Below, piece by piece: positions 3,008-34,167 of a DNA stretch of 34,167 bases (within the stretch, counting starts at the first letter, position 1; each line of letters starts with the position of its first letter). The stretch comes from Jimgerdemannia flammicorona. Taxonomy: Eukaryota. Below the pieces are notes generated by a model that was not told the DNA's origin, searched no databases, and saw only the letters and a list, made by a program, of their open reading frames with translations. The DNA lies in contig RBNJ01000284.1 of the NCBI GenBank assembly GCA_003990765.1, positions 1-34,167 of the forward strand, given 5' to 3'. Position numbers and translations under genes: made by a program.

Positions 3008-3049
3008 ACATTCAGTGGCATAGTGTCCGAATTGTCCACAGTGGAAGCA
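3008..3049 (-). other. Gag CCHC zinc knuckle (CFHCGQFGHYATEC), element A
   Basis: C-x2-C-x4-H-x4-C read in frame just after the TGA at 3068-3070. It is not shown in the ORF track. Confidence 0.92.
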
Positions 3050-4484: not shown

Positions 4485-4486
4485 AA

Positions 4487-11400: not shown

Positions 11401-12830
11401 GTGAGCCATACCCACAACCCCTCTCTTATATATATCTGGGCATGCTATATACTAATAAAGAATTTGATTTTGTTGATCTTATATTGCAGAATATAATAAA
11501 GAGAGAATATACTCTGAGGTTTTACTGTATCTGTGGTCACCTCTGGTTATCAAAGGTCAAGCTGGCCATTATACATACTTTCATTAGGCCTTAGCTAGAA
11601 TATGGCCTTTCTCTTCTATGAGTCTCCTGTCTAACTACTATCTTAGAGCTTCAGATGTTGATGCTCTATAAGCAGATCTTTGATGATGCTGTTACTTCAG
11701 CAGTATATTTTCCAGCTGACTCTTACTTGGCAGTTCAATTCTTAGCCTCTCTTCTTCCTTTATTACATGTTGGACCTCTGCTACATGTTCCAAGCATATT
11801 TGGATTTATATGGCAAATCTGGCTACAACTCCATTAGTCCTCTTAGTGAGTACTTTTTCATATATCTCTTAGATTCTATTATTGATAAATTCTGATATTG
11901 GACCTCCTGGCTTGACTTCCTTGACTGGTACTGAGACCTTCATCTCTAGATCTATAAGACTCACTCACTTCACTTGTCCTTTCTTTGGAATCAGTTGCTA
12001 CAGAAATAGGCTTTCTCCTCCCAGGATCTCATTTAGTATATTATACTCTATGGCCACTTATAGTCAAGGGTATCTAATCACATCCTCTCTTTTTCCCCCC
12101 AGCTTGTATATTTTGCCCTCACCTAGTATTATAACTACTTTGACCAACCCCACTCCTGTCTCTGTAGAGATCAATTTTATTGTGACTATCTTGTTGAGTG
12201 TAGTCTTCTCAATAGTTTATATTTAGTCTTCTGAGATAATACTAATTGGAAATAACTTGACTGGTTTACCAGTGATGAATAGCAAGAGGAACTTTATATC
12301 TTCTCTCTTCATACTCCTTATGAGTCTGCTTACTATACTATCAATACTATATATAATTCTAGTAGCTATCTTGCAGTGGAGTTCTGTCTTATCAAAATTA
12401 CAAAGATGCTTAAGTAATTGAGCAATTGCATATTTTCTTTATTATTTTCTTCCTTCTCCTCACTTGTCTTGATTGATTCTCTAGTTGTTGAGAGTTTATT
12501 AAATTATATATCTTATATTGGCTGCTTGGTATTTGTTTGTTGATATTATTCCTGTAGTTGGCACTAGGCTTATATATATTGTATTTAGCTTTTCTCTTTG
12601 CTTTTTATACTTATTATCCTTATGGTCACAACAAAATGGTTTATCTAATCCATCAATAGGATGGTCACCTATCTGAGCTTTCTTTTTGCTCTTCTTATCT
12701 GGTTGTTTACTTTATTGATCTCTTTTTGCTTTTCTCATCTTAGGAGTCTTTGCTGTTTATTGCTCTGATATACTCTTCTTTCTCTACAATGAATAAAATC
12801 ATTACTTGAAACCTACTTCTATCCCTACCT
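8440..12830 (+). mobile_element. Decayed non-LTR retrotransposon (LINE): possible ORF1 remnant, APE endonuclease, RT, C-terminal Cys/His knuckle
   Basis: APE remnants at 9670-10030 (GHQNSGLIVLI; GVYATP; ILLIDDIN for GDFN; IEHIF for IDHIF). RT remnants at 10690-11450 (WNTTIISLILKK; QGSF*; LNLWQAYD*V; LFFADDI; YIYLG). HTFIRP*LEYG at ~11575, and CLCRDQFYCDYLVEC at ~12155 as a decayed CxC-H-C knuckle. Confidence 0.88.
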
Positions 12831-14170
12831 AGACTGTCTTTATAGTCTGATTGATCAAGTTGATCTAATTGATCTGATTGATCTAGTTGATCTAATTATC
12901 TAATTGATCTGATTAATCCAGTTAAATCAGATCTCCTAGTTGTAAGTCTGTTGGTACTAATTGTAAATTCTGTACTATTCTGGCTTTTGGTTGAAAATCT
13001 TCTACTACTGGATAGTTAGTAAGTCTAGAAATAATTACTTTACTTTTTGTCTAAATACTGATAATATCTCATTCTACTATAATAGTAGAGATTGATTATA
13101 TATTAAATATATCTGGTGTGGTTGCTGGGTTTCTATAAACTAGAAAGTTATATAGATTTAAAGAAAATCTTTACAGTTAAGCCTCCAAATATAATATATA
13201 AGCTTAATAGTATAAAATTAAAAGGTTAAAAGATTTGTATATATAGTTTAGCTTAAACTCTTAGGTACTTTGTCTAAAGCAATAATATATTCTCTAATTT
13301 CTTAATAGTGTTTAGTAGTATAATAGATAATTTTGGATATAGTAATATTAGAATAGTTCTGGTGTATAGCAATAATTTTATGTATAGTATATGTTAGTTT
13401 TCTTATATATATAATTTCTACATAATAATCTTAAGAGTATAATGATCTCTAAAAGTATATAATTTTTATATAATGATCCCTATATAGTATGAGCAGTTTT
13501 CAAAAGTATATGATTTTTATATAATAATATCTATATAGTTTAACAATCTCTAAAAGTATATAATTTCTAGTATAATAATCTTGGTAACTTTCTAATTCAG
13601 TAGTAAGTTACAAAAAATAGTAATTACTTGAAAATGATAAATTCTATAGATTTTCAATATCAGTTGATCTCTTGAATAATAACTCAAATATGCAGATTTC
13701 TCTTGACTAATAAAGTTATATCAAAGACTAGCTTTATTAATATAAATATAAGTTTACTATAAGTTGCATCAAATAGGCTAGCTTTATTATAAGATATATA
13801 GACTCATTAAATAGTAGCTCTTTTCTAAGTAATGAGTTCTCTTTAAATAGTAACAGATTACTTAAAAATAGTAGCTTTTCTAACTAATAAAGTTATGTCA
13901 GAGACTGATTTATTTGTATGAGATTATATTAAGAGACTGCTTTTACTATATAGGTATATCTTATTCTAAATGGTCCTTGTAAGATATATATTAGATTGAT
14001 ATAGATTCTTTCTAAATTAGTAGATTTCTCAAATGATAGTAAAGTTCTTTACTTGAACTTAGTAAAAAATCTTAAATTTTGGACTAATTCTTTATATTAG
14101 AAAGTAGTCTAGATGAGAAAATGACCTATAACTTAGTAATAGCTCATTAGTAGGTTTCTAGTTTTTGTTA
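12830..14170 (-). mobile_element. Extremely decayed family-1 Gypsy fragment E (gag leader, PBS, most of the 5' LTR from ~13190)
   Basis: Aligns by eye to A 4210-5400 and B 31860-32820, with most TG/CA converted to TA (LTR terminus TGTAACA -> TATAATA at 13190). The 9-bp GATCTRRTT leader repeat is expanded at 12845-12925. Confidence 0.85.
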
Positions 14171-14179
14171 AGATGATAA

Positions 14180-14529
14180 CTTAATATATTAATATATAAT
14201 TATACTATTTTATCAGATTTATATTATTTATTATTAATATAACTTTGAGAACTTCAATAAATATCTCACTCTTTACAATAAAGGTAATAAGCTCTGCTAG
14301 TACTAAGCAGCTATAGTATTTAAATATACCTCTTTAAATATATTATGCTAGAAATATCAGACAACTAGTCTAGTAATATAAATATGAAAATAGATATACC
14401 AATTATGAGTATTCCTATAGGTATAACTATAATAACTATAGATATAGAAAATATATTCTTAGTTATAAGTATAAATACAGCAAAGAGATCTATTCTGATC
14501 TTTGATGGGAAAGATTATATAATCTGCAT
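14180..14529 (+). mobile_element. Decayed Ty1/Copia 5' fragment F (LTR end, PBS, gag N-terminus)
   Basis: AGGTAATAAGCTC at 14282 resembles the Copia GGTTATGAGCCC/GGTTATGGGCCC priming site. The frame from ~14383 ends ILIFDGKDYII, like the Copia gag N-terminal IPxFDGxNYxxW motif. Confidence 0.55.
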
Positions 14530-14636
14530 TGGCTGGTGATTTAAGATGAATTCCTCACTTTCAAGCTGAAAAATGAACAACCCCCACAACAACTACTCTG
14601 ACTACAAGAGCCACCCCTGCAAGAATTCAAGACAAG

Positions 14637-17600
14637 ATGGAAATGCACTCCCCAACATTCTATGGATATACTACTGAAGAGTCAATCCTGACCTTCATTG
14701 AAGACTTTGAACAATTTGCTGCCATATGAGCCCTTGGTGTGGATGCTCAATTGGCCCTTCTACTAGTCAGCCTCAGAGGACCTGTCAGAGATAAGTTCAA
14801 TGCAGCCACCATTGCTGATACCAGTGCAGCCAAACTTGCCAACATGAAGGCCTTCCTCAGAACAACATATTATACCAAAGAGATCAAGCAAGCTCTCAAG
14901 GATCAACTCAATACTATCTGCCAGGGACTTAGTGAAGATCCCAACTCATTCTATATCCGAATTTGCCACCAGATTGTCTTGGCTGACTATGATGACTGCC
15001 TCAAGGAACAAATAGTGGATTCAACCTTCCTCAAAGGAGTTCACTCTGAAATTGCTCTAGCAATCCAGTCTACCCCAGCTGTACTGATCCTTGATCAGAA
15101 AGTTGTCTTTGTACAGAGATATTGGACTGCCAGACACCCTGCCAAACACTCAATGGAGAAAATAACTGGCATCAAGATAGAGCCATCAAAGCCAACTAGT
15201 ATCATACCTACCACAGTTGTAAACAGACAACCAACCCCACCTACTCCAAAGACAGCCAAAGCTGACCCAGTGGAAGAACTTGCCAAGCAGTTTGCCAAGA
15301 TGACTGCACATCTTGGTGATGTTGTTAGAGAAGTCTGAAGTACCAACAGGAGACCAGTGCAGAGATTTGCAGCTGCTACAGAAGAACATAATATCACATG
15401 CTTCAGATGTAGAGAAGAAGGCCACAATGCAAAGAATTGCATGACCGAAACAAGATACAAAGCCCAACCAAGCAATGCTAGCAGAACCAGAGAACAAACC
15501 AATACAGTAGTCATCGAGGAGATTGGTGATACTGATGATGAAGAATACATGAGGAGCTTGAATTCTACCCTGCTATTGAAGGTACCTGAACCCAGTCCAA
15601 GCCCTATGACAAGAAGAGCAACAGCAAGCCATTTGGAAGACCAAAGAAGACCCCAGCTGTCACTATTCAAAGCAAGACTCAACCCAAGGAGATTGATCAA
15701 GACATGGAGTTAGATGAAGCTGCCCACCAAATCATTGAAGGCACTACTTCAGTCTCAGAAGAAAGCAAAAGCAAGAAGGAACAGAAGCTGTGCAAGACCA
15801 AGATCCACCAGTATGACATCTACAAGGACCTCAAGGAACAGAAGGTCAATGCCACCTTTGGACAGCTAGCTGAAGTCCCTGCCTTCAGACAGCAGCTGAG
15901 AGTAGGACTTGCAACTACTGCCAAGAATCAAGAGTACAAGATTGTAGAAGCTCACAATGCACAGAAAGAATCCGAGAACTCAGATGAAGAATCCGAAGAT
16001 CAGCACAAGACATCAGCCTATACCCCCTGCCAGATCGAAGACTGTATCTTTGATGCCATTATTGATACCAGTGCTGGAGGATGCCTCATGAGCAAGAAGG
16101 CAATTGACTGCCTAGGTTGGAAATTGAAGAGCCCACCAAGATGGTCTATGTTACAGCAGATGGTACATGAGCTACCCCTCTTGGCAAAATCCAAGAAGTC
16201 CCCATCAAGATAGAAGGAGCTACCATCCCAGTAGACATGATTGTTATAAGCACCACCAACTATGACATCCTCATTGGCAACCAATGGCTTCACAAGACAA
16301 AGGCCATCATTGACCTCAATGCCCAGAAGATGCAGATTAATTATAGAGGAAGAAAGGTATGAGTCTCTATCAATGTCCACAAAGGAATTCTACCAGACAT
16401 GGAGGAAGGAGATGAAGAGGACACAGAAGTCTTCATATACTTGGTGAACAAGAACAAGAGCAAGACACCTAAGCTCACAGATGAGCAGTGGTATAATAAG
16501 ATCATCGATGGCTATACCCCTCAAGGAAGATGCCCCCATGGTACTAAGATGTACTGCTCTGAATACCTGAATGACTGCTGGTTCTGTATCAGTGAAGTCA
16601 GAAAGATCCACCAACAGAAACATAAACAAGAAGCTACCGAAGTAAAAAGGAAAGCCAAAGAAGATGACCAGCTCCCAGAGCTTCAAGCTGACAGTAATGA
16701 TAAGGAGGAACAAGAATCAGACATCACCCTCAAGGTCAAGAAGTTTCACCCCAAAGCCAAGATCCCAGAATACAAGACTGAAGGAGCCATAGGAATGGAC
16801 CTTGCCAGCATTCAAGATGCTACCCTTGAACCACAGACCACCACCCTACTTGGCACTGGAATAGGAGTCAAGCTGCCAGAGAACCATGCTGGAATTATCA
16901 AGACCAGGAGCAGTCTGGTCAAAAGTGAAATCTCAGTTGAAGGAGGAGTAATTGACCCTGATTACACTGGTGAGATCTTCCTTATAGTTAGAAATCACAA
17001 CCACACTACCCCCTTCGAAGTCAAGAAGCATGACAAGATTGGTCAGATGCTGATCCACGAAATTAAGAAACCCAAGATCATTGAAGCCATCGAACTCATC
17101 AAGACCAAGAGAGGAGAACAAGGCTTTGGATCTACTGGAAGAGGAGTCTATGCCACAACCAAGATTACCGAACTTGAACATAAGAAAGATAAGGATCAGA
17201 ACAAGCACACATATACTATTGGAGAAAACTTTCCCCTGGAGGAATAACTTCTCAAGATCCTTCATCAGAATGAAGGAGTACTTGCTACAGACTTCAGGGA
17301 TATCCACAATCAAGAACCCAAGTACTATCATGAAGTTGACACTGATGATACCAAGCATATCTACCAAAAAGCCAGACCAATACCACCTGCCTACAGAGAG
17401 TGGCTGTGAGCAGAACTCAAGGAAATGGAAGAAGCCAGAATCATCAAGCAAGCTATCAGCCCCTGGGCCTCACCCATTGTCTTTGCCCCAAAGAAAGGAA
17501 GCAAGCCTGGAGAATTTGCACTAAGACTCTGCATTGACTACAAGAAACTCGATGCCATCACCAAGAAGGATAGGCAGCCCTTGCCAAATATTCAAGAAAT

Positions 17601-18658
17601 CCTTACCACTCTTGGAAGTAAAGCCAAATACTACACCACCTTGGATCTGTTCTCAGGCTTCCATCAGATTGGTCTCACTCAAGATGCCAGTGAGAAATCA
17701 GCCTTCATCACATCTGATGCCACCTATATCTACCTGTGAATGCCATTTGGAATGTGCAATGCCCCAGCAAGTTTTTAGTGAATGATGAATGGAGTCTTCA
17801 GAATGAGATTGGAAAATGGCTCTTTGTCTATGTTGATGATGTGATCATCTTCAGCAACACTGCATGGGAATATGTCAATCACATACAGCTAGCCCTCAAG
17901 AAGCTCAAGGAGCATGGCCTCTACATCAAGCCTAAGAAATGCAAATTTGCAGCTCAAGAAATCACCTATCTAGGACACCTCATCAATCAGACCAGAATCC
18001 ACACAGACCCCATAAAGATTGAGGCTGTTGCAGCCTACCCAAGACCCAGAACAACTACAGAAGTCCATGCCTTCCTTGGACTGGCCAGCTACTACAGAAG
18101 ATTCATCAAAGGATATTCCAACATTGCAGCACCTATATACGAGCTTCTGAAGAAGGAGACCAAATTCGAATAGACCAAGGAGTGACAAGAAACCTTCAAT
18201 GAACTCAAGACCAGGTTGACCCAAGCACCTATCCTCAGAAGACCAGACTGGAACCTAGAATTCATCCTGCAGACAGATGCAAGTGCTATAGGACTTGGAG
18301 CAGTCCTAGCTCAAAGAAAGATGGACATGAATATGTCATCTCCTATGCAAGCTGAGGTACCCATGGAGCAGAACAGAACTATGAGTTATGCAAGCTCAAA
18401 TACTTAGCAGTAGTTTGGGCAGTAGATAAGTTCTACTACTACCTAGCTGGGAAATACTTCACCATTCAAACAGACCATTCCACTCTTGCCTGGCTATTCC
18501 ACACTCTGAACTCCAAAGGAATATATACCAAATAGATCTACAGGCTGCAAGAGTATGACTGTACTATCAAGCACCACTTAGGAAAGACTAACACCAATGC
18601 TGATGTACTCTCAAGGACACCCCGAAATACCCCCATCAATACTATTCAATATGAATAA
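14637..18658 (+). pseudogene. gag-pol: gag-PR-dUTPase-RT-RNaseH of element C (multiple stops and 1-nt frameshifts)
   Basis: PTFYGYTTEESILTFIEDFE (gag); CFRCREEGHNAKNC; AIIDTSAGG (DTG->DTS by G->A at CpG); [75 protein letters not shown]. Confidence 0.93.
16729..17139 (+). other. dut: dUTPase domain in Pol, element C (no internal stop)
   Basis: AIGMDL, TRSSLV, GVIDPDYTGEI, KIGQML, RGEQGFGSTG within ORF 16399..17247. Confidence 0.95.
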
Positions 18659-19900
18659 GGAGCTATACTATGGATTAATCAGCTACCTTAGGTAGTGGAA
18701 GATACCCAATCACCTCAAACCCTGGACAATCACCATCATCAACCAGACTTGGAAACAGTTTGAAATAGACAACACTATACTCAGAAAAGGAGGAAAGCTA
18801 GTAATATCCGAATACAAGAAGTATCAAGTAATGAAGGAAGTATACAAGCAAGGACACTTAGGAGGAACCAATACATACGACAAGGTGAGAAGAACCATGT
18901 GGTGGCCCAAGATAGAAGAAGACCTGTGCCAATTTGTCAAAGAGTGTGACAAGTGCCAAAAACAGAAACAAGATCAATAAGACCAGGCACCCAGGTCATC
19001 AAGAATTGAGCCTATCCCCTTCCACCACATCGCAATGGATATCATTGGACCACTACACCAGTAATACTATCAGGAAACTACTATATTATAGTTATTGTAG
19101 ACCTCTTCACCAAATAGATAGAGGCAGGAGCATTACAAGATGCCAATGCCCTCTCTATAGCTGACGTTCTGTACTGAGAAATCATCTGCCATTACAAGAC
19201 ACTGAAGCAAATCACAACAGACCACAGCACAGAATTTGTGAATAGATTCTACGAGATAATGTATCAGAAATACAAGATCCAGCACATCAAGACCACCGTG
19301 TACCACCCTCAAGGAAATAGACAGACAGAGAGAACCAACAAGACTCTCAAGAACATCCTAGTGAAGATCTCAGAGACATATGAGAATTGGGATAACTATC
19401 TCCCAACTGCCCTCTCTGTCCTATGAGACATATGGTCACAGAGCACACACTTTACCCCAAGGGAGCTGCTCTTCAGAGAAGAAGATTCTGATGGAATCTC
19501 AGTCACAAATCTAGACCTAACTTAGAGACAGGTTGATACAGAAATCCGGAGACTATACCAAATCAGGAAGAAGGCTGAAGATTACATCACCAAGTCACAA
19601 GTGCTGATAAGAAAGAATGTGGAAAAGAATCACAAGGCCCTAGAACCCATCTGAATTGGAGAAAAGGTTCTACTATATTGAAATATGGTAGAAGTCTCAT
19701 GATCATGAAAACTGGAGCCCAAATGGGAAGGATCCTTCTACATGCAAGATATTAAGAGAACTACCTTCTGGCTTAGAAAAATCTCAGGGACCATACTGCC
19801 TACCACAGTACATAGGAACAGACTCAAGAAGTACCATGAATCTATACAAGAGAAGCAAAATGTGATGACTGCCTATGAGGTTCTAGTCCATGAATCATAA
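18651..19900 (+). pseudogene. int: Integrase of element C (HHCC, rve core, GPY/F-like tail; no chromodomain seen)
   Basis: MNKELYYGLISYL...GHLGGTNTYDKV..WWPKIEEDLCQFVKECDKCQK; HHIAMDIIGPL; TTDHSTEF; YHPQGNRQTERTNKTL; KLEPKWEGSF; VHRNRLKKY. Confidence 0.9.
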
Positions 19901-20173
19901 CAGCATATCCCATGAAAAGCAGGCTATCTATCTGGACCATTCTCTAAGAGATACAGTACTGGCAACTACTCATCCATGAGACTTTTGAAGTCAGAGGAGT
20001 TCAAACTGTCAACTGGTTGGTCAAGATCAGAATCAGGCCCTTGCTTTATATGAAGGGAGCGACTCTTCACCATCACACCAAAATACAAAGAGAAGATGCT
20101 AGCCCATAAACACCACTTTTTGACCCCTTGCCAGAGGTTATGGGATCAACAAATTTTTCAGGACTGGACCAAT

Positions 20174-20213
20174 GAATAAGGATGCTCAGGAAGATCCTTA
20201 TTCAGGAGGAAGA
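20174..20213 (+). promoter_or_regulatory. Hairpin and polypurine tract of element C
   Basis: AATAAGGAT...ATCCTTATT inverted repeat, then AGGAGGAAGA directly abutting TGTAACA at 20214. Confidence 0.75.
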
Positions 20214-20342
20214 TGTAACAGTGACTCCAGAATGATGACATCAGCACAGGAGACAGCCTTTCCTTGCAAGCCATCAGATCGGAGTACAAGAAGATCATAC
20301 AGCATACAAGATGAGTAATGATGACCAACTGTAAGTCATTGT

Positions 20343-20432
20343 AACCACAGTACAAGCATTCTGAAGAATATAAAAGAAGGATCAAGAAACCACAGTACAA
20401 GCATCCTGAAGAATATAAAAGAAGAATCAAGG
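20343..20432 (+). repeat. 45-bp direct duplication, each unit containing TATAAAAG
   Basis: AACCACAGTACAAGCATYCTGAAGAATATAAAAGAAGRATCAAG occurs twice, with TATA at 20369 and 20414. Confidence 0.9.
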
Positions 20433-20500
20433 AACTGCAGTAGCAGCAACCAACAAGAACCACCAATCTCAAAATAGCTCAAAGACTAACCACAAATGAA

Positions 20501-21306
20501 ATGCCTGCTGCCCACCCAACCTCAAGGTCAAGGAACTACCAAGGTATCTCAGTTGAAGAAAGGATGTTCCAAGACATCAGAAGAGCCATGAGGACCTGCT
20601 CAAGAAGGGCTCCTAGTGTTAACCTGGATACTGCAGACCCCTATCACTTCATCCTCTACCACCATGAAATGGAAACAAGGATCACTATTGCTACCAAATA
20701 CCTCCAAATATGGCAGGAGTATGAAATAGGAAACCAACTCTGCCGGGAGTTCTCACAGGCCAGCACTCAAGAGCTACAAGATACCACTTCCATAGATATA
20801 TGCGAAATAAAGATAGCTACAAAGTCCATCAGATCTTCAGGCATGCACCATGGTCAATCTCCAACTTGGAGTATGTTAGAGTCTCAGATTTCAGAGACCT
20901 GTCATTCTGCTATATCAATGCACTAGAAGCCAGGGTGGCTACAGAAGCCCAGTCTACTATCACTCTCAACAGTAAAGAAGTAGAAGACTTCTGGCATCCT
21001 ATCCTTCAGAACAACCCAGACCAATTCCTGCAAGGATTGATCTCAGTATTCCAAGGCCCAAGTATCCAGGTTAGGCCTTCCCAAGACCCCACATTTGTTC
21101 CTTATTTTGTAGAAGAGAACCTCATAGACTGGAGAGCTCCAGATCTTATTCCTGATTTCCCTGCCAAATGTGATGATGTCATTGGTGATGATGTCATCCC
21201 ATGCCACATTGAAGTATGTGAAAATGACGAATTCACAGATCTCATCACCTTTAGTAATGATGATAATGATGATGAAGCCCCCATGATCCTGAACATTCTG
21301 CTCTAA
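20501..21306 (+). pseudogene. Accessory ORF of unknown function inside LTR C (~268 aa, one 1-nt frameshift near 20816, acidic tail)
   Basis: ORFs 20501..20926 and 20800..21306 join at ...EIKIA/YKVHQIF. It is homologous by eye to 34006-34167(+) and 24590-25104(-). Confidence 0.75.
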
Positions 21307-21318
21307 GTTCCTTATTAT

Positions 21319-21475
21319 ACTAGATAATGCCAGCACTGGTATTTTGATATAACACTGGATAATGCCAGCACTGGTATTTTGATGTAACACTGGATAATGC
21401 CAGTACTGGCATTCTGAGGTGATGCGAAATTGTTCCAGCACTGGTATTCTGATGTAACACTAAATTATACCAGTA
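21319..21475. repeat. 35-bp tandem repeat (~4 units) with a palindromic core in LTR C
   Basis: Unit is ACTGGATAATGCCAGCACTGGTATTTTGATGTAAC. A perfect palindrome AATGCCAGTACTGGCATT lies at 21396-21413. Confidence 0.9.
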
Positions 21476-21816
21476 TCCTGAACCTGTATAATCCTTAGTG
21501 CCGACTCTGGAACTTAGTAGTTTTAGTTATTGGAATTTATATTTAGCTTTATATCTTAGCAACTATTGAATTGTATTTTGTATAAATACCTCTCTTATTT
21601 CCTCTGAAATAAAGTCAGTTCCAGTTCACTTACACACAATCTCTTGTAAGCAATCTGAGAGATAACAAGACAGTTAAGATAAGAAGTTTGAGGACTATAA
21701 GACCTTGGGAAGGCACTCCAATAAGAACTTGCTTATAACAAACTTGAGTTAGTCTAAGAGATACATCTTAAAGAGAATCTGGCATATTTGAAGGACTCAG
21801 CAACCACTATGTGACA

Positions 21817-23400
21817 CTATCTATATGTCAATAAATACTATATCACTATTGTTATAATATGGGACATATATATAATTGTCTACTTTATAATATATAAATC
21901 TATTATTAAGGAAATATTTATCAATTCTTTTATTCTATAACTATGCTACTTGTTTAATATTATATAATCTCTTATATAATCTACATATAAGCTCACTATT
22001 TTTATATCCTTATAGTTGATGAATATATAGTTTAGTATCTATATTTCTATTTAGGAATACTGTCTTTATATCCATTTGATAGATTTTGAGATTATATATC
22101 ATACTAATTATAAGGAGTATTCTAAATAATATAAGCTTAAATATAGGTAAAAATATTTTATTATAATCTATACTATAATTCTATGAGTATTTCTTAGTAA
22201 CAAAATGAGTTTTATATTACTCTATACTTCTGTCACTCTTGTATTTAATCATATAGACCTACTTTAATCTAATCATTTGGTGATTTGATAAAAGAAATAC
22301 TAAATCTCTTATATTATTCTAGATTAGTAAATTATATTCTTAATCTATAACTCATTTTTATTTCTTACTATCAGGATTGGTTATAGCTTTATTATACATA
22401 TTTGGCTTGTCAGAAGATATTGCAATATATATATATTTATATACTTTAGTATAGCTTACATAGCCCTGATATTATTATCTAAGACTTACTAGTATAATCC
22501 AATAATTTTCTATATTGTAATGAGTTTCTCAGTAAATGTTAGAGTACTTTTATTTGCTCTTTGTAGAGGATTTCTCATTACTAAAGAGTTCACTATTATC
22601 TTTATCTTTGATCTCTATTATTCTGAGCTCAGATAACTCTGACTCAGATATATATAGTAGTTGAAAATAATTTTGATTAACCACTAGAGAGGTTGGCACT
22701 GATTGCTTTATTTGTATTAGCTGGAATATAGATATTGAGGGCTTAACTAGTTCATCCACATAGTTCTCTGAACCATTTTTGCTCTTTTCTCAAAACTGTA
22801 CATTATGCAATATAACTATATGATACTTATATAAATTTCAAAGTTAATATATCTTGCTAGAATATTCAAGAAATATGTACTTGTCAGCTTTTAGCTCAAA
22901 CTTATACTAATTAATATTGCTTTATTTTAGAATATATATATTATATCTAAATATATATAGATATGATATATATATTAGGCCTAGTTCTACTCTATAATTC
23001 TTCAGAAGTAAGATTATCATCTCTGAAATACTTATTGTTATTGGAATTCTTACTGAGAGCTCAAGAGATATATTAATTACAGATATATACTACTATATTA
23101 ATGGCTTTGGCCTAATAAAAATATGATAATCTGACTATACTAATTATCATTTAAGCTATTTCAATGATTATATAGTTAAATCACTCAGTTATACTATTCT
23201 GCTGAGATATATTAGAAGCTATCATTTAATAATATATGGTATATTTTCTCAGAAACTGCTTAAATATATTATTAATATATTTATATCTATTATCTAAGTA
23301 TATAGCATGTACTCTATATCCTATTCTACTTTTGGTAATTATTTTGAACTCTTTGAACTTCTTCAGGACTTTGCTCTTCATTAATAATAAATATATATAT
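21817..23400 (-). mobile_element. Heavily decayed Ty1/Copia element G: integrase core to RT
   Basis: Minus translation gives KSKVLKKFKEF..AIYLDNRYKY..SQQNSITE*FN..Y*AKAINIVVY (integrase) and FVTKKYS*NYSIDY..YQMDIKTVFLN..VFIDI*I (RT, cut at the WVDD motif by element C). IN-before-RT order is Copia-type. Confidence 0.88.
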
Positions 23401-24548
23401 TGTAATATTCCTGGCTCAATAAAGGCAAAATATAAGGTTGGGAGTAGATGTAGTTTGACTTAAGCCCCCAGTTACTTTGTAAAAAGTAATAAAATATTCT
23501 TAATGTTTAGCAGTATAATAGTCAAAGCTGGATATCTGTGAGTGATTCTGGCAATTTTCTTATTTGGACAGGTTCTTGGGTATAGCAGCATTTTAGTGGC
23601 AAATGATTTAGTATAACAGTCTCTATATAGTATGACAATCTCCAAAAGTATGTGATTTCTGCATGATGATCTTGTGTAGTATGAGTGGATTCCTTATATA
23701 GGGTAATCTGGCAATTTAGTGGTTTCCTACTTAGGTGACGGGCAATCTCTGTATAGCATGATGATCTCTGTATAGTGCAATGGATTTCTTATATATAATG
23801 ATCTGACAATTTGACAGATAACTCAATTTGGGTACCAATTCTCTGAAATAGCTCACTGGGAATTATACTTGTAGGATTCTTCTGTACTGAGCTCACTGAG
23901 AATAAATGAATAACTTAGATATTATAGATTCTTGACAAGTTACATCAAGACTGACTTCATTTATTTGAATGGATCACTGTGAAGTTGTATCAAGAGACTG
24001 GCTTGTGGCAAGATTCCTTAAAGCTCTCTGAGAATATGGGTAACTAGGATTCTTCAGGCTTATCTGGCAAGTGAACCAAAATATAGTAGCTTATTCCTTA
24101 AGTGGTGGATTACTCAAAAGGCAGCAAAGTTCTTCCTTGAACTTTGATAGCAAATCTTCAGACTTATCTAGCAAGCAAATTAAGGCTTTTTATTAGAAAG
24201 TAGACTAGAGTAGAAAGGGGACAAATGCTCAATCTTTAGAGACTTCTTTGGTGTTTGCATTTTGGACTGAGGTTTATTCACTCTTGTCTCTGGGGTATTT
24301 TATACATTATAATTACTATCTAGTTGCTATGTGGCTAACTATAGATTTACTACTTATAGTAAGTTGTACAGGTCCAGCATAAGTATACAGATCCAGCACA
24401 GATATGTAGGTCCTGCACAGATATACCTTATCTGGTAGTCTGGCTATTTATATAGTTTTCTGCAGCAATGGTTGTTGTGTCTGATTACTATGCTATATAT
24501 TCACATCATCAGAGTTATAATTTGAGTAGTATGTTTTGGTATATTATA
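23401..24548 (-). repeat. 3' LTR of element B
   Basis: TGTAATA...TATTATA termini (mutated TGTAACA/TGTTACA). Colinear with 32109-33133 apart from a ~110-bp extra block at ~24080-24190. Confidence 0.9.
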
Positions 24549-24589
24549 TCAGTCTCCACTAAAGGATAGTCTGTCCTCAGACTGTCTTT

Positions 24590-25104
24590 TAGTCATTATC
24601 TCAGTGTGAATAGGCATCTTCTGCATCAATACCCATTTCATCATCTTTGTTATCTGTGCTATAGTTGCTCTATTCTAGGAGTTCTTCTTCTTCTTCTGAG
24701 AATAAGATTTTGACAGCATTAATGATGCTCATATAGGTGGCTAGGTTCATTTCTCATGCATCATACCAGGAGAATTGTGCTTATATTGGGGCTGCACAGT
24801 TTTGTTTATAAAGAGTGTAGAGCCTGTCTGCAGCAGTGATATCTCTCCTTGATAGTCCTGTAGTATTTCTGATATATGTTTGTTCTGAGACTGAGAGGTT
24901 CTGCAATTGTTCTCCAATTGTATAATGGGCCTGAAGTTGATGGACCTGTAACAATCATCTGGCCAGAACAAGATTCTCTTGATGAATTTGGATTCTCTGG
25001 AGGGTAGTCTCATTGATTTCTCGAAATTGAAGTAGGGGAACTGACAGTAATTGAAATGAGCTGAGGATATGAGTCTGAAGGTAGTTGTCAACTCTCTGTT
25101 TCAT
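24590..25104 (-). pseudogene. Accessory ORF of unknown function between integrase and PPT of element B
   Basis: The ATG at 25104 overlaps the integrase end (stop 25088-25090). It reads MKQRVDNYL...HQENLVLAR*LLQVHQLQAHYTIGEQL...NTTGLSRRDITAADRLYTLYK...AQFSWYDA*EMNL, then an acidic tail. The stops fit C->T. It is in a different frame from track ORF 24747..25091. Confidence 0.7.
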
Positions 25105-28100
25105 GATGTGGGGAAAGATATATCTTGAGGTAATTGATATATACTGGTGTCCTTAGGGTTCATCCATCTATACCTCTTAAATAGTTGCTAGTTCCTCTGA
25201 TGTTGTGTATAAGATAAGGTCCTTCTCATTTGAGCTCCAATTTGGTAGTGAAGTTTGTTTCAATCATGCTTCTCCAAACTAGTACTTGATCTCTAATCTT
25301 AATCCTCTGGTCTTTCTGTTTCTGGTCATAGTACTTCTTTTGTCTTTCTTGAGCTTTGGTAATCTGAACTCAGGTCTGATTACATAACTGTTCTGTCTTC
25401 TTGAGGAGGTCTCCAAGATTCTCATAGTCAGCAGTTCTGGTTTTCTTGGTAAACATTATTTCAAATGGCTTTTGTTTGGTAGAGATAGCAGGGGTGTTCT
25501 GAATTTCCCATAGGATCTCAGGTAAGCAGAGGTCCCAGTTGGTAGGTTTGACTTAGGCAAGTCCTTTCTTGATGATCTGGTTCATTCTTTCTGTTATACC
25601 ATTGGTCTGGAGGTAGTATGATGTGGTTCATTTGAGGTGAATCTTGTGAATTCAGATATAACTTGTGATTATATTGTTGATAAATTCTGTGCCTTAGTCA
25701 GAGATGAGTTCTTCTGGAGATCTATATCTGAGTGTGAGTCTATGGAGAAGACCTACAATGGTCAAGGCAACTGTGATATCTATTAGGAAAGCCTCAGGCC
25801 ACTAAGTCAGATGTTCTACAAATACAAGAATATATTTGTTTCTTCTTGGTGTAACTGGTAGAAGTCTAATTATATCTACTCTCTATCTCTGAAAGATATT
25901 ATCTGGTAGTGTGATTAGTTGTAGTAGTGCTTGATAGTTCTTCCTTCCTTAGTACTTCTGGCAGATGTCACATTTCTTGAGCATGTCCAAGACTTATGTT
26001 CTGAGGTGGGGCAAATGTTGGTATATTGTTTACAACTTTTCTTCTATATTTGATTGTCCTTGGTGGGCTTTCTGATATTCCTTTCAGATGAGATCTTCTT
26101 GTGTCTTGATGGTCTGAGGAGCTTCTTTTAGGGTGTAGTTTCTTGAGACACCCTGCTTCTGGTTTATTGGGGCTAGCAGAAAAGTACATCAACATTGTTG
26201 TGAGCTTTCCCTGCTTTGTAGATGATAGTGATTTGGTAATCCTGAAGGATAAGAAGCCAGTAGGCTAGGATTCCAGTGGGTTCCTTGCAGTTAAATAGCC
26301 ATTTGAGGGCTGTATGGTCTGTAATCAGGGTGAATCTTTTTCTGATAAGGTAATGCTTGAACAGAGTGACTGTCCATATGACTGTAAGGCATTCCAGTTT
26401 AGTGCTACCATAGTTCTGTTGCTGCTGATTGATAGCTCAGCTTGAATAAGCTATCATATAGTGTTATTGGTCAGGTCCTTCTTGGAGTAGAACTGCTCCT
26501 AGACCATCTTTAGAATCATTTGTGTATAAGATGAATGGCTTCTGTAGATTAGGGGGCACAAGAATTAGTGCTATAGTCATGTGGTTCTTGAGTTCTTTGA
26601 AGGCTTTCTCTTATGATTCTGTCTATTTGTAAGGTACTTCTTTCATGAGAAGGACTTAGATTGGAGCAGTGATTTGGGCAAAGTCCTTGATAAACCTTCT
26701 ATAGTAGGATACTAGTATCAGAAATGATAGTGTTTCCTTCAGGGTCTTGGGTACTGGCCAATTATTGATCTTCTTAGTTTTCTTTGGATCTGCATGAATT
26801 CCTTCTTTTGAAACTATAAATCTAAGGAATTCAAGTTTCTGTTACTCAAAGTAGTATTTATTTGCATTGAGTCTCAGGTGGTTCTTGCAGGTGAGCTTGA
26901 AGAATTCTTCTAGATAGTGCAGGTGTTTTTCTAAATTTGCTAAATAGATGTTGGAATCATCCATATATACAATTAGGCAGTAGTGGATCAAGGGGGCATA
27001 GACTGAATTCATCATCCTCTAAAAGGTGGGAGGTGCATTGCAAAGTCCAAAGGGTATTTGGAGATATTCAAACAGTTTTCCTAGAGTAAGAAAGGCTGTC
27101 TTTTGAGTATCTTTAGAGTCTATGGAGATCTCATAGAATCCTGTAAAAAGGTTAATACTGCTGAAGAATCTGGCATCTTGTAACTGATCCAAAAGGTCAT
27201 TGATTCTGGGCAAAGGATAGGCATTCTTTTTGGTGACTGAATTGAGTTTCCTGTAATCTACACAAAGTCTCTATCCTCCTTTCTTTGGTACAATAAGTAT
27301 AGGGCTGACCCAGGGGCTGGTAGAGGGTCGGATGACTCCATTGTCTAAGAGTACTTGAATGTACTCTTTTTCAAATATTTTTAAGGATGGGGTATTCTAT
27401 AGGATTTCTGCCGAATGGGTGTTGCATTTCTTATATTTATTGTAGTAATATGATGGATTGTATGGCAGATTGCCATAATCAGTAGTGAAGATATCTTGAT
27501 ATTTGTTGAGAAGCTTTACTAGTTGTTACTATTGTTGGGTTGTCAATTCTTCTCCAATGTTAGTAGAAGGCTTCACTGTCTCCTGGGTCGCAGAGGGGCC
27601 TTTCCTTTCTTCTGGGACCTTTTGCCATTTCCTGATAGGTTTAGTTCATAAACTTCTATATGAGTTCAGTTGAGAAAAGACACCAGATGCCCTATGATGG
27701 TTCCTTTTGGCAAGATGATAGTTTTCCAACTTTGGTTAGTTGCTTAGAAATGTACTGGGTTCATTTTGTCAGAGAATGTGTGTTCTTTTATGTCCAGGTG
27801 TGGGATATCTTTATTGGGTTCAAAGAAAAGGTTTCTGGGGTCAGATGGTATAAAGATTTCAAAGGTTATTTGTTCTCCAGACTCCAGGATGAGATTCTTG
27901 TGCAGTTTGACTGATTGGCAGTACACTTGCTAGGAGACATTTCTCTTGAGGTAGTTGACTTGAAGGAGATATACTTCCTTCTTGTCTGAACTTCCAAATC
28001 CTTTGGCTTGTCTTGTTCCTTCAGTCAGTTCAGAGACTTCTTGTAATTGTGGAGTCTTGACCTTCATGAAGACTGCTTGGGCAATCTTCTGTCCTCTAAT

Positions 28101-31100
28101 GATTTGGTACCATTCTATACTACTGTTGTATAGAATGACCTTGATTTTACCAATATATCCTGGGTCAATAGTTTCTCCTTCTACAGTTATTCCTTGTCTG
28201 GCAAGTCCAGATCTTGAGGTCAGTTAGATGTAAGCTCCTTGGAGTGGCTGTATAGCTAGTCCAGTTCTGATTATGAATGTTTTTCTAAGCTTGATAGATT
28301 TGTTCTCCAGACTGTAAAGATCATATCATACATCTTCTAAGTGAGCTTTGGTTGAAGGTTTGGCCTTGGGATGTAGCAGAGCATACAGGGCAACATTCTT
28401 ACTGATTTTAGGCTGTCCTTAGGCTGAGGCTCTAATAGCAGAGAGCCTCCAGGCTCTGAGATTGAGGTGTGGCCACCTGGCTCCAGTAGAGGGGTCTTGG
28501 AGATAGTTGATTCCTCTTCTTCTTGTAGGGTCTAGGGCTTCCATGAAGTTGGTGGCATCTTCTACCTATCCTTGGCAGGTTGCATATTTGTTAAGGGCTA
28601 GGATGTCTTCTTTTAGATCATATATCTTGAGGATCCTTCTTCCTGACTTCTTGGTCTGGCTTTTTTGAATCTGGCCTCTGTTATCTCCTCTCTTCAAGAT
28701 GTGAATTGCAACATCATGACTGAGGTGAATCTTCTGCAGTCTTGGCAGTCTGGGTGTCTTCTGTGGTTATAATATTCCATTGCTCAGAAATAATGTTCTT
28801 GATTGTTAATTTCTTATTGTCTTGGGAATCAGTATCCATCTTGATTATAAGTTGGGAGAAGAGTGGACAGGGTATACTTCTATTGGGTGAAGTGACCTTG
28901 TCCTCTGAATTGGCTTTGCAACTTGGTAGTAACTTCTTGGAAGGTAGTAGACTGTACAACTATATTTGGGGGTTCTGGTCTCTGGGGTCTCTATCTCTCT
29001 TATTGATCTAGTAGATGGTACTGATAGCAGTTGTCTTGAGGAGAGTAGAAGACCATTTGGTGTAAACATCTTCCTAGCTAAAATGTCCTCTCTTGATGAG
29101 TTTCTTTCTTGAGAACAATGGGGATTATACTGAGTCCTTCTTCCATCATTGTCTTCAGGTAGTATCCAGCAAGGGTCATCCCAGGGAATGAGTTTGGGGA
29201 CCTCTTCTTCTTCAGGTGCTTCTTGTTCAGGAACTTCTTGATTAGGAACTTCTTCTTCCTTAGATGATTCTTGGCCCCAAATTGCTTATACTTCTATAGC
29301 TTCAGCTGCAGGTGTTTCTGGAATATGTCTGCATTTCTTCTTCTTCTTTCTGCACTCTGGACAGGCTGTACCAGGCGAATTCCTTGTCCCAATGATCTTG
29401 GAGGAGTGCTCTGAGTACTTGTGTCTCTTGTGGCAGATGGAGCATCCTTTGATTTCTTCTACAATAGCTCCAATGGTAATGGGGATAGTGTTCTTGGCCT
29501 ATATATTGTCTTCTGGTCAGTCATCTACTAGGTTGATTCTGGGATTGAGTCTGGGATCATTTCCATCTTTAGATTCTTCTTCTTTCTCTATAGTAGACTC
29601 TTCACTGCTGGCATATTCTTTCTAGATAGTGACCTTCTTCTTCTTCTTCAATTGCTCATAGCTGGTCACCTTAACTCTGTACTTCGTGCCCCAGTAGTCA
29701 AACTTGAGTACTTGTTGACCAATATCAACAACTACATTCATTTCCTTTATCCAGTTGGTACCAACAATTATATCATAGGTAATGATCTCTGTGACAACAG
29801 CTTTTGGGATAGAGAACTGAATGTGTCCAAGAGAAATTATGATGTTTTATACTTCACCAAGGGGTTGAGTTCAGGCTCCATCTGCTACCATAATACTGAG
29901 GTTGGATGGTCCATTAATGGGCCATTGGAGGGTATTCAGAAACTATTTGATAATGACACAGATAGCTACTCCTATATCTATGAAGATTTTCGCCTTTTGT
30001 CCTCCAATGTCTTCATGTAAGTAGGTGCTGATATATCTCTCTGCAGCCTGAATAGATGTGGGGGCTGACTCTTGCTGTGAGATGGGAACTTGGCCAGTGC
30101 TAGACCTAGTGGTCCTCAGTAATTTGTTTTGGACTTCAGCTAATATTAGTTGTAGAAACTACAGAAGGGGAACCTCCATCTTGGTCTTTTGAATCTTCTG
30201 CCAGGCTTTATTGTAGATATCTCTAGACATAGTCTTCAGGGTGTACTTCTTCTTAGGCTTTGGGGCAGTAGGCTCCTGTTCTTCTTGTTCCATTTCTTCA
30301 TCTTTTAGTAGCAGCTTATTTGACTTTGAGACAAAAGATGAGGGGGTTCAGGGAGGTATTTCTACCTGCTCTTCCTCATATTCTTCATCTTCTTCTTAGA
30401 TGATTCTTCTGCTGATATTCCTGGATGGCCTTCCTATAGATCTCTTCCTTTTTTCTGCTGGATAAACTGTTTTCTAGGTAGTAACCTTGATAGGATACAG
30501 GTCTAGGTCACTATAGTCTTCACTGTTGCTTGCTTCTTCAAAGTCTTCAATAGAATGAGCTTTGATCTTTTTGTACTGAGTATCATTCCTTTAATTTGAT
30601 GGTTCTGCATCTCTTCAGTCACTTCTTTTATTATCACATTGAGTGGCATAGTGTCCAAATTGTCTACAGTGGAAGCATTGGACTTGGGCTCTATCATAGA
30701 CATAGTATCTTCTTTCTTCTTACTGATAGCTTCTGTTATTTCTAGGTGAATAACCCTGGTTTCTTTGTGGGAGATATCCTCTATTATCTTGATAACTCTG
30801 ATTTTTGTATATAGTAAGTTTTTCAATCTATCAAACCAATCAGTCCAACTTGGAGCTGAGGTCTTGGATTTCACTCCTATCCTTCTTTCCTTCTTTGGCT
30901 GGTCTTCTATCTTTGGGTCTCTCTTGTCCTTGAAGGAGTCCTTGTAGGACTTTGACCAGAATGTCTTCCTTAACATCCTTCTTGTCATAGTCACTCCAGA
31001 TAGTTCCTTATCTGATATCAAAGAATCCTTGGGCTATATCTACTTGCTCTTTGGACCTTCTGATACCTAGAGTGTAGACATACTGAGCAATGTTTGGGGG

Positions 31101-31744: not shown

Positions 31745-32108
31745 GATGAGATTGGTGGGACTGCTGTAGGGTATCTGGCTGAATTATTTCAAGCTTATGT
31801 AATAAGATCTTCTAGTTCTTGGGTAAGTTCTCCAAAGTCTCTAACTGGACCACCTGTATTGTCTGGTTGATCTGGTTGGGGATTTTGGACTATATTGGCT
31901 TCTAGTTCTGGTTGAGATCCTTCTGATACTATATAGTTGGTAAGTCTTGAAGTTATTACTTCTCTTTCTGTCCAAATACTGGTGATGACTGGTTCTTCTG
32001 TAGTGGTAGAGATTGGTATTCTATCAAATGTATCCAGTTTGACTGTAGGTTCTTGTGAGCTAAAAAATCATATCAATTTTTAGAAATCTTCCCAGTTGGA
32101 CCCCCAAA

Positions 32109-33133: not shown

Positions 33134-33139
33134 ATATAT

Positions 33140-33798: not shown

Positions 33799-34167
33799 TG
33801 TGATGTATGCAATTGACAACGGAGTACCAGTGACTGCTAAGATCAGACAACATAATGGCATGACAATCAAATAGACAGTCTGACCCATTAGGTGATCATC
33901 CCAAAAGAAGACAAGATGATCCGAGCCAAAATGAAGACCACGTTATTTAAGGAACCATACTCCGCCTCAGGGACCAGCACCAAAGAACCAAGTACCTACT
34001 ACACAATGCCTCCCATTTGCCAATCCAACCAGACCTCCTGCTGCTCTACCCCTTTGCCTGGCCCAAAGACCCTGATCTTTGAAGCTATCAAGAAGGCCAT
34101 CTGGCACCCAGATACTTCCGAACACTTGAACTTCTACACTGAGGACCTTGGACACTTCATCAACTAC
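33799..34167 (+). mobile_element. Start of another LTR (element H), truncated by the window edge
   Basis: Abrupt composition change at CTAT|TGTGATG interrupting Copia G. It contains a homolog of the LTR-C ORF at a similar distance from the LTR start. Confidence 0.65.
34006..34167 (+). CDS. Accessory LTR ORF homolog, 5' part (open to the window edge)
   Basis: MPPICQSNQTSCCSTPLPGPKTLIFEAIKKAIWHPDTSEHLNFYTEDLGHFINY aligns with RMFQDIRRAMRTCSRRAPSVNLDTADPYHFILY of 20501+. TATTTAA lies upstream at 33944. Confidence 0.7.
   Translation, partial: MPPICQSNQTSCCSTPLPGPKTLIFEAIKKAIWHPDTSEHLNFYTEDLGHFINY

What the first reader, a model, noticed from the sequence alone, without database searches (positions are those of the whole stretch)
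20501..21306. Unrecognised accessory gene family shared by three divergent Gypsy elements, sitting inside the LTR in two of them
Seen: in C the ORF lies downstream of PPT|TGTAACA (20214) and upstream of the main TATA/AATAAA (21581/21608), i.e. in U3. The LTR starting at 33799 has an ORF ~200 bp in whose N-terminus matches (IFEAIKKAI..LNFYTEDLGHFINY vs MFQDIRRAM..VNLDTADPYHFILY). Element B has a third homolog outside its LTR, overlapping the integrase stop (HYTIGEQL..NTTGLSRRDITAADRLYTLYK..DA*EM vs EYEIGNQL..DTTSIDICEIKIAYKVHQIFR..DFRDL). B and C both end in acidic tails. The likeness is at protein level, not obviously at DNA level, which implies long-term selection. Established: U3-encoded genes are known in retroviruses (MMTV sag, lentiviral nef overlapping U3) but are not a standard Metaviridae feature, and no signal peptide or TM helix suggests env. 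Inference: a trans-acting regulator or anti-silencing factor that would survive in solo LTRs.
Basis: partly seen in the sequence, partly recalled or inferred. Interest (0 to 1): 0.85.

Follow-up and report, generated by a model that had tools for sequence, protein, structure and literature searches.

The report
Protein gene inside a retrotransposon LTR
A conserved gene for an acidic protein of unknown family appears to sit inside the long terminal repeat of two Gypsy-type retrotransposons, a place where such elements normally carry only control signals.

Summary
The ORF is real. Window 20501-21306 encodes about 268 codons without a stop, split over two frames by a one-base length difference near 20824. 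Twelve database proteins in 9 clusters match it, all from metagenomes. They include an intact 271-aa form and relatives at 29-47% identity.

The ORF fragment at 34006-34167 (element D) is a true family member (HMM E 3e-8; BLASTP 1e-9 to P0010). Direct C-versus-D BLASTP is not significant.

The third claimed homolog (element B, 24784-24954, minus strand) is not supported (HMM E about 0.7-1; hhalign probability 1.7%).

Placement inside the LTR is supported only indirectly:
- Nine metagenome contigs pin the LTR 3' end at 21816.
- The polypurine tract at 20204-20213 is followed by TGTAACA, the same heptamer that starts element B's verified LTR.
- No polypurine tract followed by TG lies downstream of the ORF.
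- Element D starts 207 bp before its ORF.
- Contig depth over the ORF is 2.2-3.2 times the internal depth in 4 of 4 runs.

No copy with two LTRs and no RNA data could be obtained.

The protein has no Pfam, PDB or fold match and no membrane helix. It has a helical core and an acidic tail. A trans-acting regulator or adaptor role is inference only.

Verdict: a new variant of a known kind; moderately interesting.

The parts
14527..20213 (+). Internal part of Gypsy-type element C (gag zinc knuckle, protease, dUTPase, RT, RNase H, integrase). It is degenerate, and its 5' end is cut inside the primer-binding site, so the 5' LTR is missing.
   Evidence: Pfam hits: zf-CCHC 15339-15710, dUTPase 16363-17244, RVT_1 17410-18170, Integrase_H2C2 18696-18977. 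Colinear with element B by tblastx up to C 19834. Window 14527 onward matches the loose-end consensus that follows 21816 in metagenome contigs.
20204..20213 (+). Polypurine tract AGGAGGAAGA, directly before the proposed LTR start.
   Evidence: It is one of three purine runs of 9 or more followed by TG in 19900-21816, and the only one followed by TGTAACA.
20214..21816 (+). Proposed 3' LTR of element C (1603 bp), TGTAACA...TGTGACA.
   Evidence: 3' end: loose ends behind 21816 in 8 X1 contigs and 1 X3 contig run on into PBS and leader sequence, and depth collapses after 21801. 5' end: the same heptamer as the repeat-verified LTR start of element B at 33131, no later polypurine tract followed by TG before 21681, and a depth step in the bin that holds 20214 in 4 of 4 runs.
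20343..20442 (+). Tandem repeat of 45 bp, 2.2 copies. Each copy holds TATAAA (20369, 20414), 87-132 bp before the ORF start. Candidate promoter or enhancer for the ORF.
   Evidence: Copy number varies among metagenome copies (joints that skip 50, 53 and 79 bp, table 5).
20501..21306 (+). Accessory ORF, about 268 codons, read in frame 2 up to about 20824 and then in frame 1. No stop in either part.
21319..21473 (+). Tandem repeat of 35 bp, 4.4 copies, between the ORF stop and the downstream TATA box.
   Evidence: Copy number varies in metagenome copies (table 5).
21581..21613 (+). TATAAA (21581) and AATAAA (21608): candidate promoter for the genomic RNA and poly(A) signal.
   Evidence: Motif positions only; function is inferred.
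33799..34167 (+). Left end of element D (starts TGTGATG after 26% GC flank), running off the window. It may be a 5' LTR or a solo LTR.
   Evidence: The flank 33132-33798 has no pol-like match to the rest of the window.
34006..34167 (+). First 54 codons of element D's member of the ORF family.
   Evidence: HMM E 9.2e-7 and 3e-8; BLASTP 1e-9 to P0010.
24784..24954 (-). Not accepted.
   Evidence: not significant. It lies upstream of B's LTR start at 24546.

Best explanation
Element C is a dUTPase-bearing Ty3/Gypsy retrotransposon. Its 1.6-kb LTR carries a complete gene for a soluble, acidic protein of about 270 aa (pI about 4.5-4.9). The protein belongs to an orphan family known only from such elements and from metagenome contigs. 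The gene starts 287 bp inside the LTR. Upstream of it is a 45-bp tandem repeat with two TATA boxes. Downstream are a 35-bp repeat array, a third TATA box and the only AATAAA outside the ORF. Element D, a diverged lineage, carries a member of the same family 207 bp from its left terminus. Shown here: the ORF, its family, the LTR 3' end, and the similar position in D. Inferred: each LTR copy (5', 3' or solo) could make a roughly 1.2-kb monocistronic mRNA from the upstream TATA boxes to the LTR's own poly(A) signal, while the genomic RNA starts at the downstream TATA. Also inferred: the protein acts in trans as a regulator or adaptor. The basis for that is a helical core followed by a disordered acidic tail with two conserved short hydrophobic motifs (DLIxF and LNFLL), a make-up typical of acidic activation or protein-recruiting tails.
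For: ORF and family. 6 of 12 candidate proteins matched at E 1e-36 to 1e-69 and 61-77% identity. A profile search of 1.84 billion representatives gave 5 clusters, 3 of them new, at 29-47% identity to P0005. Twelve database proteins in 9 clusters are known. The start MP(A/P) is kept in all 5 sequences that reach the N-terminus. A C-terminal LN(F/I) motif is kept in 8 of the 10 sequences whose tail I examined (7 of them in A3; the window's own copy is in A1), despite tails of different length. Under substitutions alone at 15-30% change per site, only 2.4% to 0.08% of simulated copies keep both parts open. Placement. Loose ends behind 21816 in 8 X1 contigs and 1 X3 contig read ACTTGGTGCCCATTGGCTGGTGATTCAAGA, which matches C's own truncated 5' end at 14527. 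Element B's LTRs, defined by repeat alignment, start TGTAACA and end TGTTACA. C has polypurine tract|TGTAACA at 20214 and ends TGTGACA. Purine runs followed by TG occur only at 20087, 20204 and 20555 before 21681. D's ORF lies 207 bp from a junction with unrelated AT-rich DNA. Mean contig depth over the ORF versus the internal part is 2.4, 3.2, 2.2 and 2.3 times in X1, X3, X6 and X9. The tool warns that depth is a poor measure. Protein. No membrane helix; 10-19 acidic against 2-4 basic residues in the last 60. The AlphaFold model has helices at 47-150 and a tail with pLDDT under 50 from 217.
Against: No copy with two LTRs was seen, and C lacks its 5' LTR, so the LTR 5' boundary rests on motifs, analogy with B, D's position and depth. 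No loose end at 20214 was among the 24 rows shown, with 301 more not shown. The C and D sequences upstream of the ORF do not align. D could be a truncated element rather than an LTR. Database proteins are ORFs picked by gene callers from many copies, so open frames are an ascertained sample. No DNA of the homologs was available for dN/dS. The family is small (5 representative clusters), and all members come from short contigs of 720-4848 bp. The structure model is poor (mean pLDDT 55, pTM 0.42). The proposed function has no direct support.
Confidence: 0.6

Rival explanations
1. The ORF is an ordinary third ORF lying between pol and the 3' LTR, as in Athila/Tat or bdelloid elements. The true LTR would be short (about 300-500 bp) and start downstream of 21306.
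For: Additional ORFs of Gypsy elements normally lie there (PMC5408684, passages read). X1 shows loose ends before 21521 and 21522 (4 contigs). C has no 5' LTR in the window with which to check.
Against: No polypurine tract followed by TG lies between 20565 and 21680. The loose letters at 21521/21522 look like diverged copies of the 35-bp repeat unit, whose copy number varies among copies (table 5). D's ORF starts 207 bp after a junction with unrelated AT-rich DNA. Depth over the ORF is LTR-like in 4 of 4 runs. The TGTAACA start matches B's verified LTR start.
Confidence: 0.13
2. The ORF is inside the LTR but in R, not U3. Genomic transcription would start at the upstream TATA boxes (20369, 20414). 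The ORF would then be the first reading frame of the genomic RNA, ahead of the primer-binding site and gag, and would be repeated at the RNA's 3' end.
For: Two TATAAA motifs lie 87-132 bp before the start codon, and the only AATAAA outside the ORF is at 21608.
Against: R would be about 1.2 kb, far longer than is usual (general knowledge of LTR elements; not tested here). A third TATAAA at 21581, just before the AATAAA, fits the usual U3/R layout.
Confidence: 0.15
3. The ORF is a captured piece of a host gene, or a chance open frame, with no role for the element.
For: LTR elements can carry captured host sequence (general knowledge). This window's copy is frameshifted.
Against: A profile search of 1.84 billion representatives found only 5 clusters, none with a name or a Pfam domain. 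A 'longer' search found no fused form (0 of 969 candidates). Conserved blocks persist down to 29% identity in a second element lineage in the same window. Neutral drift would close the frame.
Confidence: 0.04
4. The protein is not a regulator. It would be a structural or trafficking helper of the particle, for example one that recruits host factors for nuclear entry or steers integration towards the AT-rich DNA where these elements sit.
For: No chromodomain was found at the integrase C-terminus of C (no Pfam hit after 19423), although the frames there are broken. All four elements lie in 22-26% GC DNA. The tail motifs could equally be docking motifs.
Against: No similarity to any known targeting or capsid domain. 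Location in the LTR, with its own TATA boxes, fits a separately expressed factor but does not exclude this role.
Confidence: 0.2

Closest known systems
MMTV sag (superantigen ORF in the U3 region of a betaretrovirus LTR)
   Same: A protein gene of about 270-320 codons lies inside the LTR, downstream of the polypurine tract. It is therefore duplicated at both ends of the integrated element and kept by solo LTRs. Searches for 'LTR ORF' and similar phrases returned essentially only MMTV papers (search listings).
   Different: No sequence match to any Pfam family. No membrane helix, whereas Sag is a type II membrane glycoprotein (recalled). The element is a Ty3/Gypsy type with a dUTPase, not a retrovirus. 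U3 versus R is not settled here.
Additional ORFs (ORF3, env-like or enzymatic) of Ty3/Gypsy elements such as Athila/Tat and the bdelloid Vesta, Juno and TelKA families
   Same: An accessory reading frame lies 3' of pol in a Gypsy-type element. Some of those lineages also carry a dUTPase (PMC5408684, abstract and passages; PMC2864245, passages).
   Different: Those ORFs lie between pol and the 3' LTR, and many have membrane or enzymatic domains. This one lies after the polypurine tract, has no recognisable domain and has no membrane helix.
Retroviral accessory genes that overlap the 3' LTR and act on transcription (foamy-virus Tas/Bel, lentiviral nef) - recalled, not tested
   Same: A 3'-terminal accessory gene reaches into U3. 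An acidic C-terminal region, as in acidic activators, is the basis of the functional guess.
   Different: No sequence or fold similarity was found. Here the whole ORF, not just a part, lies within the LTR. No activation or DNA binding has been shown.
dUTPase-bearing fungal Gypsy elements (PosPlaTy3-5 of Postia, Phanerochaete elements, Tuber Tmt1)
   Same: A dUTPase lies between protease and RT, as in C, A and B (PMC2864245, passages).
   Different: That paper's figure legend lists an 'add. ORF' of unknown function for some elements, but the figure is not held, so its position and sequence could not be compared. The host of this window is unknown.

Membership tests
Ty3/Gypsy (Metaviridae) LTR retrotransposon (element C) | Domain order gag - protease - RT - RNase H - integrase, with integrase after RT | tested here: met
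   zf-CCHC, dUTPase, RVT_1 and Integrase_H2C2 occur in this order. Protease and RNase H are assigned by colinearity with A's and B's Pfam-supported domains.
Ty3/Gypsy (Metaviridae) LTR retrotransposon (element C) | Two LTRs with TG...CA ends, a primer-binding site after the 5' LTR, and a polypurine tract before the 3' LTR | tested here: inconclusive
   Only the 3' LTR is present. Its end (..ACA at 21816) and the following primer-binding site come from metagenome contigs. Polypurine tract|TG lies at 20204-20215. The 5' LTR is lost.
The new ORF family (P0003-P0014) | Significant profile match over the conserved blocks | tested here: met
   C: E 5e-77 and 4e-38 for its two parts. D: E 9e-7, and 3e-8 with a model that holds no C-type sequence. 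B: E 0.7-1, so B is not accepted as a member.
LTR-borne (U3) ORF of the MMTV sag kind | The ORF lies wholly between the LTR's 5' end and the transcription start (U3) | tested here: inconclusive
   Inside the LTR is supported indirectly. The transcription start is unknown, and TATA boxes lie on both sides of the ORF.
LTR-borne (U3) ORF of the MMTV sag kind | Type II membrane glycoprotein with sequence similarity to Sag | tested here: not met
   No Pfam family at E up to 1 other than a chance ATG5 match. Highest 19-residue hydropathy is at most 1.05.
env-like ORF3 of Gypsy elements or errantiviruses | Located between pol and the polypurine tract, with a signal peptide or membrane-spanning and fusion segments | tested here: not met
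   The ORF starts 287 bp after the polypurine tract. No hydrophobic segment. No Pfam env family.
Retroviral transactivators (Tas/Bel1, Tax) | Sequence or fold similarity | tested here: inconclusive
   No Pfam, PDB-sequence, Foldseek or VIA match. However, the model is poor (pLDDT 55).
Retroviral transactivators (Tas/Bel1, Tax) | Activates its own LTR | not testable with these tools
   Needs a reporter assay.

The most novel reading that the evidence does not exclude
Each LTR of these elements is a self-contained gene: its own TATA-bearing repeat, an ORF of about 270 codons, and the LTR's poly(A) signal. Solo LTRs left after recombination would then keep producing a trans-acting protein that serves the whole family, for example by activating LTR promoters or by countering the CpG-methylation silencing whose footprint is strong in this window. 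That would be a shared 'public good' encoded in the one part of a retrotransposon that survives deletion, which is not a described feature of Metaviridae.
Probability: 0.22. Interest if true: 0.85.

Novelty: new variant of a known kind. Interest (0 to 1): 0.55.

Why it matters
LTRs of Gypsy-type elements are treated as non-coding control regions, and annotation pipelines mask them. A conserved protein gene inside the LTR would be duplicated in every full element and kept by solo LTRs, which usually outnumber full copies. Its dosage and persistence would therefore differ from those of gag and pol. If the protein regulates transcription or silencing, it gives a handle on how large transposon-rich genomes of soil eukaryotes keep elements active despite methylation. 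It also adds an orphan protein family with no Pfam model.

Tried and rejected
- Whole genome: none is held for this window.
- DNA context of the homologs: the metagenome scan gave one locus, L001, whose match is seeded by the search pattern, holds stops and lies in unrelated 27% GC DNA, so I treat it as chance.
- Viral-contig scans found nothing with A2, C's dUTPase piece, P0010 or the PBS motif. Genome-contig scans also found nothing.
- Alignment A3 was too diverse for the locus scans, so they were re-run with A2.
- No RNA holder was listed among 11 runs, so expression is untested.
- No loose end at 20214 appears in the 24 rows shown; 301 more rows were not shown.
- Function searches gave nothing usable: Pfam, PDB sequences (best E 0.28), Foldseek PDB (0 matches at E 0.001 or below), VIA wide (best Z 4.2), and the ESM Atlas (best score 0.83, TM at most 0.33).
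- A 'longer' search for fused forms scored 0 of 969 candidates.
- Host identity: a pol-region search gave only two unnamed metagenome proteins.
- Earlier scan notes: none in 3 look-ups.
- DNA alignment of C's and D's pre-ORF stretches was uninformative.
- Terminal inverted-repeat scoring did not separate the candidate LTR starts.
- A's and B's LTRs hold no family member.
- Literature: 6 searches found no Gypsy element described with an ORF inside its LTR. The library lacks most subscription journals, and figures and bioRxiv supplements were not seen.

Full report
**Setting.** The window is a nest of degenerate Gypsy-type retrotransposons separated by spacers of 22-26% GC.
- Element A (minus strand, 1-5659) and element B (minus strand, 23401-33131) are about 85% alike.
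- Element C (plus strand) runs from 14527 to 21816.
- Element D starts at 33799 and leaves the window.
- A, B and C each carry a dUTPase between protease and RT. This layout is known in fungal and bdelloid-rotifer Gypsy elements (PMC2864245 and PMC5408684, passages read).
- No whole genome is held.
- All 11 listed runs hold only part of the 3.8-kb stretch: at most 0.20 of its sampled words. Nine of them are soil metagenomes, and none is on record as RNA.
- The host is therefore an unidentified eukaryote, probably from soil. Contigs at least 80% like the stretch were laid from both soil runs examined.

**The observation.** Two overlapping ORFs lie at 20501-20926 and 20800-21306.
- A word-indexed search gave 6 of 12 candidates at E 1e-36 to 1e-69 and 61-77% identity. 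One of them, P0005, is an intact 271-aa protein that spans both window frames.
- The frames switch near 20824. There, 3 of 3 X3 contigs hold one more letter (table 4). Neither part contains a stop.
- A profile search of 1.84 billion representative proteins found 5 clusters. Three were new (P0009, P0010, P0011), at 29-47% identity to P0005.
- With further cluster members, 12 database proteins in 9 clusters are known. All come from JGI or ENA metagenome contigs of 720-4848 bp. None has a name beyond 'hypothetical protein'.

**Signs that the frame is read.**
- The five sequences that reach the N-terminus (C, D, P0005, P0009, P0010) all start MP(A/P).
- A C-terminal LN(F/I) motif follows an acidic stretch of variable length in 8 of the 10 sequences whose tail I examined. 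Indels there therefore keep the frame.
- In a substitution-only simulation, 2.4% to 0.08% of copies keep both parts open at 15-30% change per site.
- Gene callers pick open frames from many copies, so this is an ascertained sample. The stronger argument is that blocks stay conserved down to 29% identity.

**Element D.** The quoted peptides lie in one frame that opens with Met at 34006.
- Direct BLASTP of D against C's N-terminal part is not significant (E 5.8).
- D does match the family model at E 9.2e-7. It matches a model built only from P0009-P0011 at E 3e-8, among 1041 six-frame pieces.
- It matches P0010 at E 1e-9 with 42% identity.

**Element B.** The segment 24784-24954 (minus strand) is the first non-family hit in two of the three models (rank 4; rank 9 in the narrow one). 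It aligns to the expected model positions.
- The scores are chance-level: E 5.5, 0.71 and 0.97, and hhalign probability 1.7% with P 0.029.
- C and B are colinear through pol up to C 19834 and B 25118. The B segment therefore corresponds to C's spacer after pol, not to C's ORF.
- B's repeat-verified LTRs, and A's, contain no member.
- I reject the third homolog.

**Is the ORF inside the LTR?** C has lost its 5' LTR, so the window alone cannot prove it. The evidence is as follows.
1. The LTR's 3' end is fixed. In 8 X1 contigs and 1 X3 contig, the sequence after 21816 reads ACTTGGTGCCCATTGGCTGGTGATTCAAGA. This is a primer-binding site and leader, and its last 21 letters match C's own cut 5' end at 14527 with one difference. 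Depth falls about 30-fold after 21801.
2. B's LTRs start TGTAACA and end TGTTACA. C has AGGAGGAAGA|TGTAACA at 20204-20220 and ends TGTGACA.
3. Purine runs followed by TG occur at 20087, 20204 and 20555, and then not until 21681. An LTR that started after the ORF would have no polypurine tract.
4. D begins with TG at a sharp junction with AT-rich DNA that has no pol-like content. Its ORF starts 207 bp later, against 287 bp in C, where 45 bp of that distance is a tandem duplication.
5. Summed contig depth over 20405-21166 is 2.4, 3.2, 2.2 and 2.3 times the mean over 18500-20150 in X1, X3, X6 and X9. It rises in the bin that holds 20214 in 4 of 4 runs. The tool warns that depth is a poor measure.

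Against this, no loose end at 20214 is among the rows shown, with 301 rows hidden. The stretches before the ORF in C and D do not align. I put the ORF inside the LTR at about 0.8.

**Anatomy of the LTR**.
- A 45-bp repeat of 2.2 copies lies at 20343-20442, with TATAAA at 20369 and 20414.
- The ORF runs 20501-21306.
- A 35-bp repeat of 4.4 copies lies at 21319-21473.
- TATAAA lies at 21581 and AATAAA at 21608.
- The LTR ends at 21816.
- Both repeat arrays vary in copy number among metagenome copies (table 5), as enhancer-like repeats often do.

From this layout I infer a promoter in front of the ORF that uses the LTR's own poly(A) signal, and a second promoter for the genomic RNA. The alternative is that the upstream TATA boxes start the genomic RNA, which would place the ORF in a very long R. 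Sequence alone cannot exclude this.

**The protein.**
- It has no Pfam family and no solved relative by sequence.
- The AlphaFold model is poor: mean pLDDT 55, helices at 47-150, and a tail under pLDDT 50 from residue 217.
- Foldseek, VIA and the ESM Atlas gave nothing above chance.
- It is acidic (pI 4.5-4.9), has no membrane helix, and carries 10-19 acidic residues in its last 60.
- It is therefore neither env-like nor Sag-like.
- The acidic tail with conserved DLIxF and LNFLL motifs suggests a recruiting or activating tail. This is a guess from composition.

**Comparison with known systems.** By position, the closest parallel is the sag ORF in the MMTV LTR. Searches for ORFs in LTRs returned essentially only MMTV papers. 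Additional ORFs of Gypsy elements are well known, but they are described between pol and the LTR. I found no description of a Gypsy LTR that holds a conserved protein gene in 6 searches. The library lacks many journals, and the 'add. ORF' figure of PMC2864245 could not be seen.

**Verdict.**
- The ORF and its family are real, and two of the three claimed elements share it.
- Its place inside the LTR is likely but not proven.
- Its function is unknown, and a trans-acting regulator or adaptor is the best guess.
- I rate it a new variant of a known kind, of moderate interest.

Noticed in passing
window 2-1015 (-), 16363-17244 (+), 27933-28223 (-): Elements A, C and B each carry a dUTPase domain between protease and RT (Pfam E 1e-27, 2e-27 and 7e-17). 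This layout is reported for some fungal and bdelloid-rotifer Gypsy elements.
   Followed up: partly
window 7034-12800, 14527-21816, 23401-33131: CpG is almost absent from the elements (observed/expected 0.01-0.09), and CpA+TpG is in excess (ratio 1.4-1.75). This is the footprint of deamination of methylated CpG rather than classical RIP. The AT-rich spacers have TpA/ApT of 1.05-1.22.
   Followed up: partly
window 12801-14526, 21817-23400, 33132-33798: Spacers of 22-26% GC rich in TA separate the elements, and all four elements abut such DNA. This hints at an insertion preference or at old decayed repeats.
   Followed up: no
window 7034-12800: Two degenerate segments about 75-81% alike lie 4.3-4.4 kb apart on the plus strand (repeat families D3, D15, D18). 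There is a weak RVT_1 hit at 11137-11391. This is another decayed retroelement, possibly duplicated in tandem, with no tblastx match to A, B or C at 1e-5.
   Followed up: partly
window 23401 and 33131 (element B ends): The flanks next to both ends of element B read ATATAT. That is consistent with a short target-site duplication, but it is weak evidence in TA-rich DNA.
   Followed up: no
window 4500-5659 (-): Element A's 1.16-kb LTR has long stretches with few stops and repeated proline-rich peptide motifs in the sense frames. They show no similarity to the ORF family.
   Followed up: partly
window 20496-20591: An ATG five bases upstream of the ORF start opens a 31-codon frame that overlaps the ORF start. 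Its context is weaker (C at -3) than that of the main ATG (G at -3). Read from the sequence.
   Followed up: no
window 33410-33472: A fragment of 27-55 bp in D's left flank matches part of the A/B LTR in inverted orientation (blastn E 2e-5).
   Followed up: no
L001:10001-10237: The only metagenome locus returned is a 27% GC contig. Its 30-32% match is seeded on the search pattern and holds stops, so it is probably chance.
   Followed up: yes
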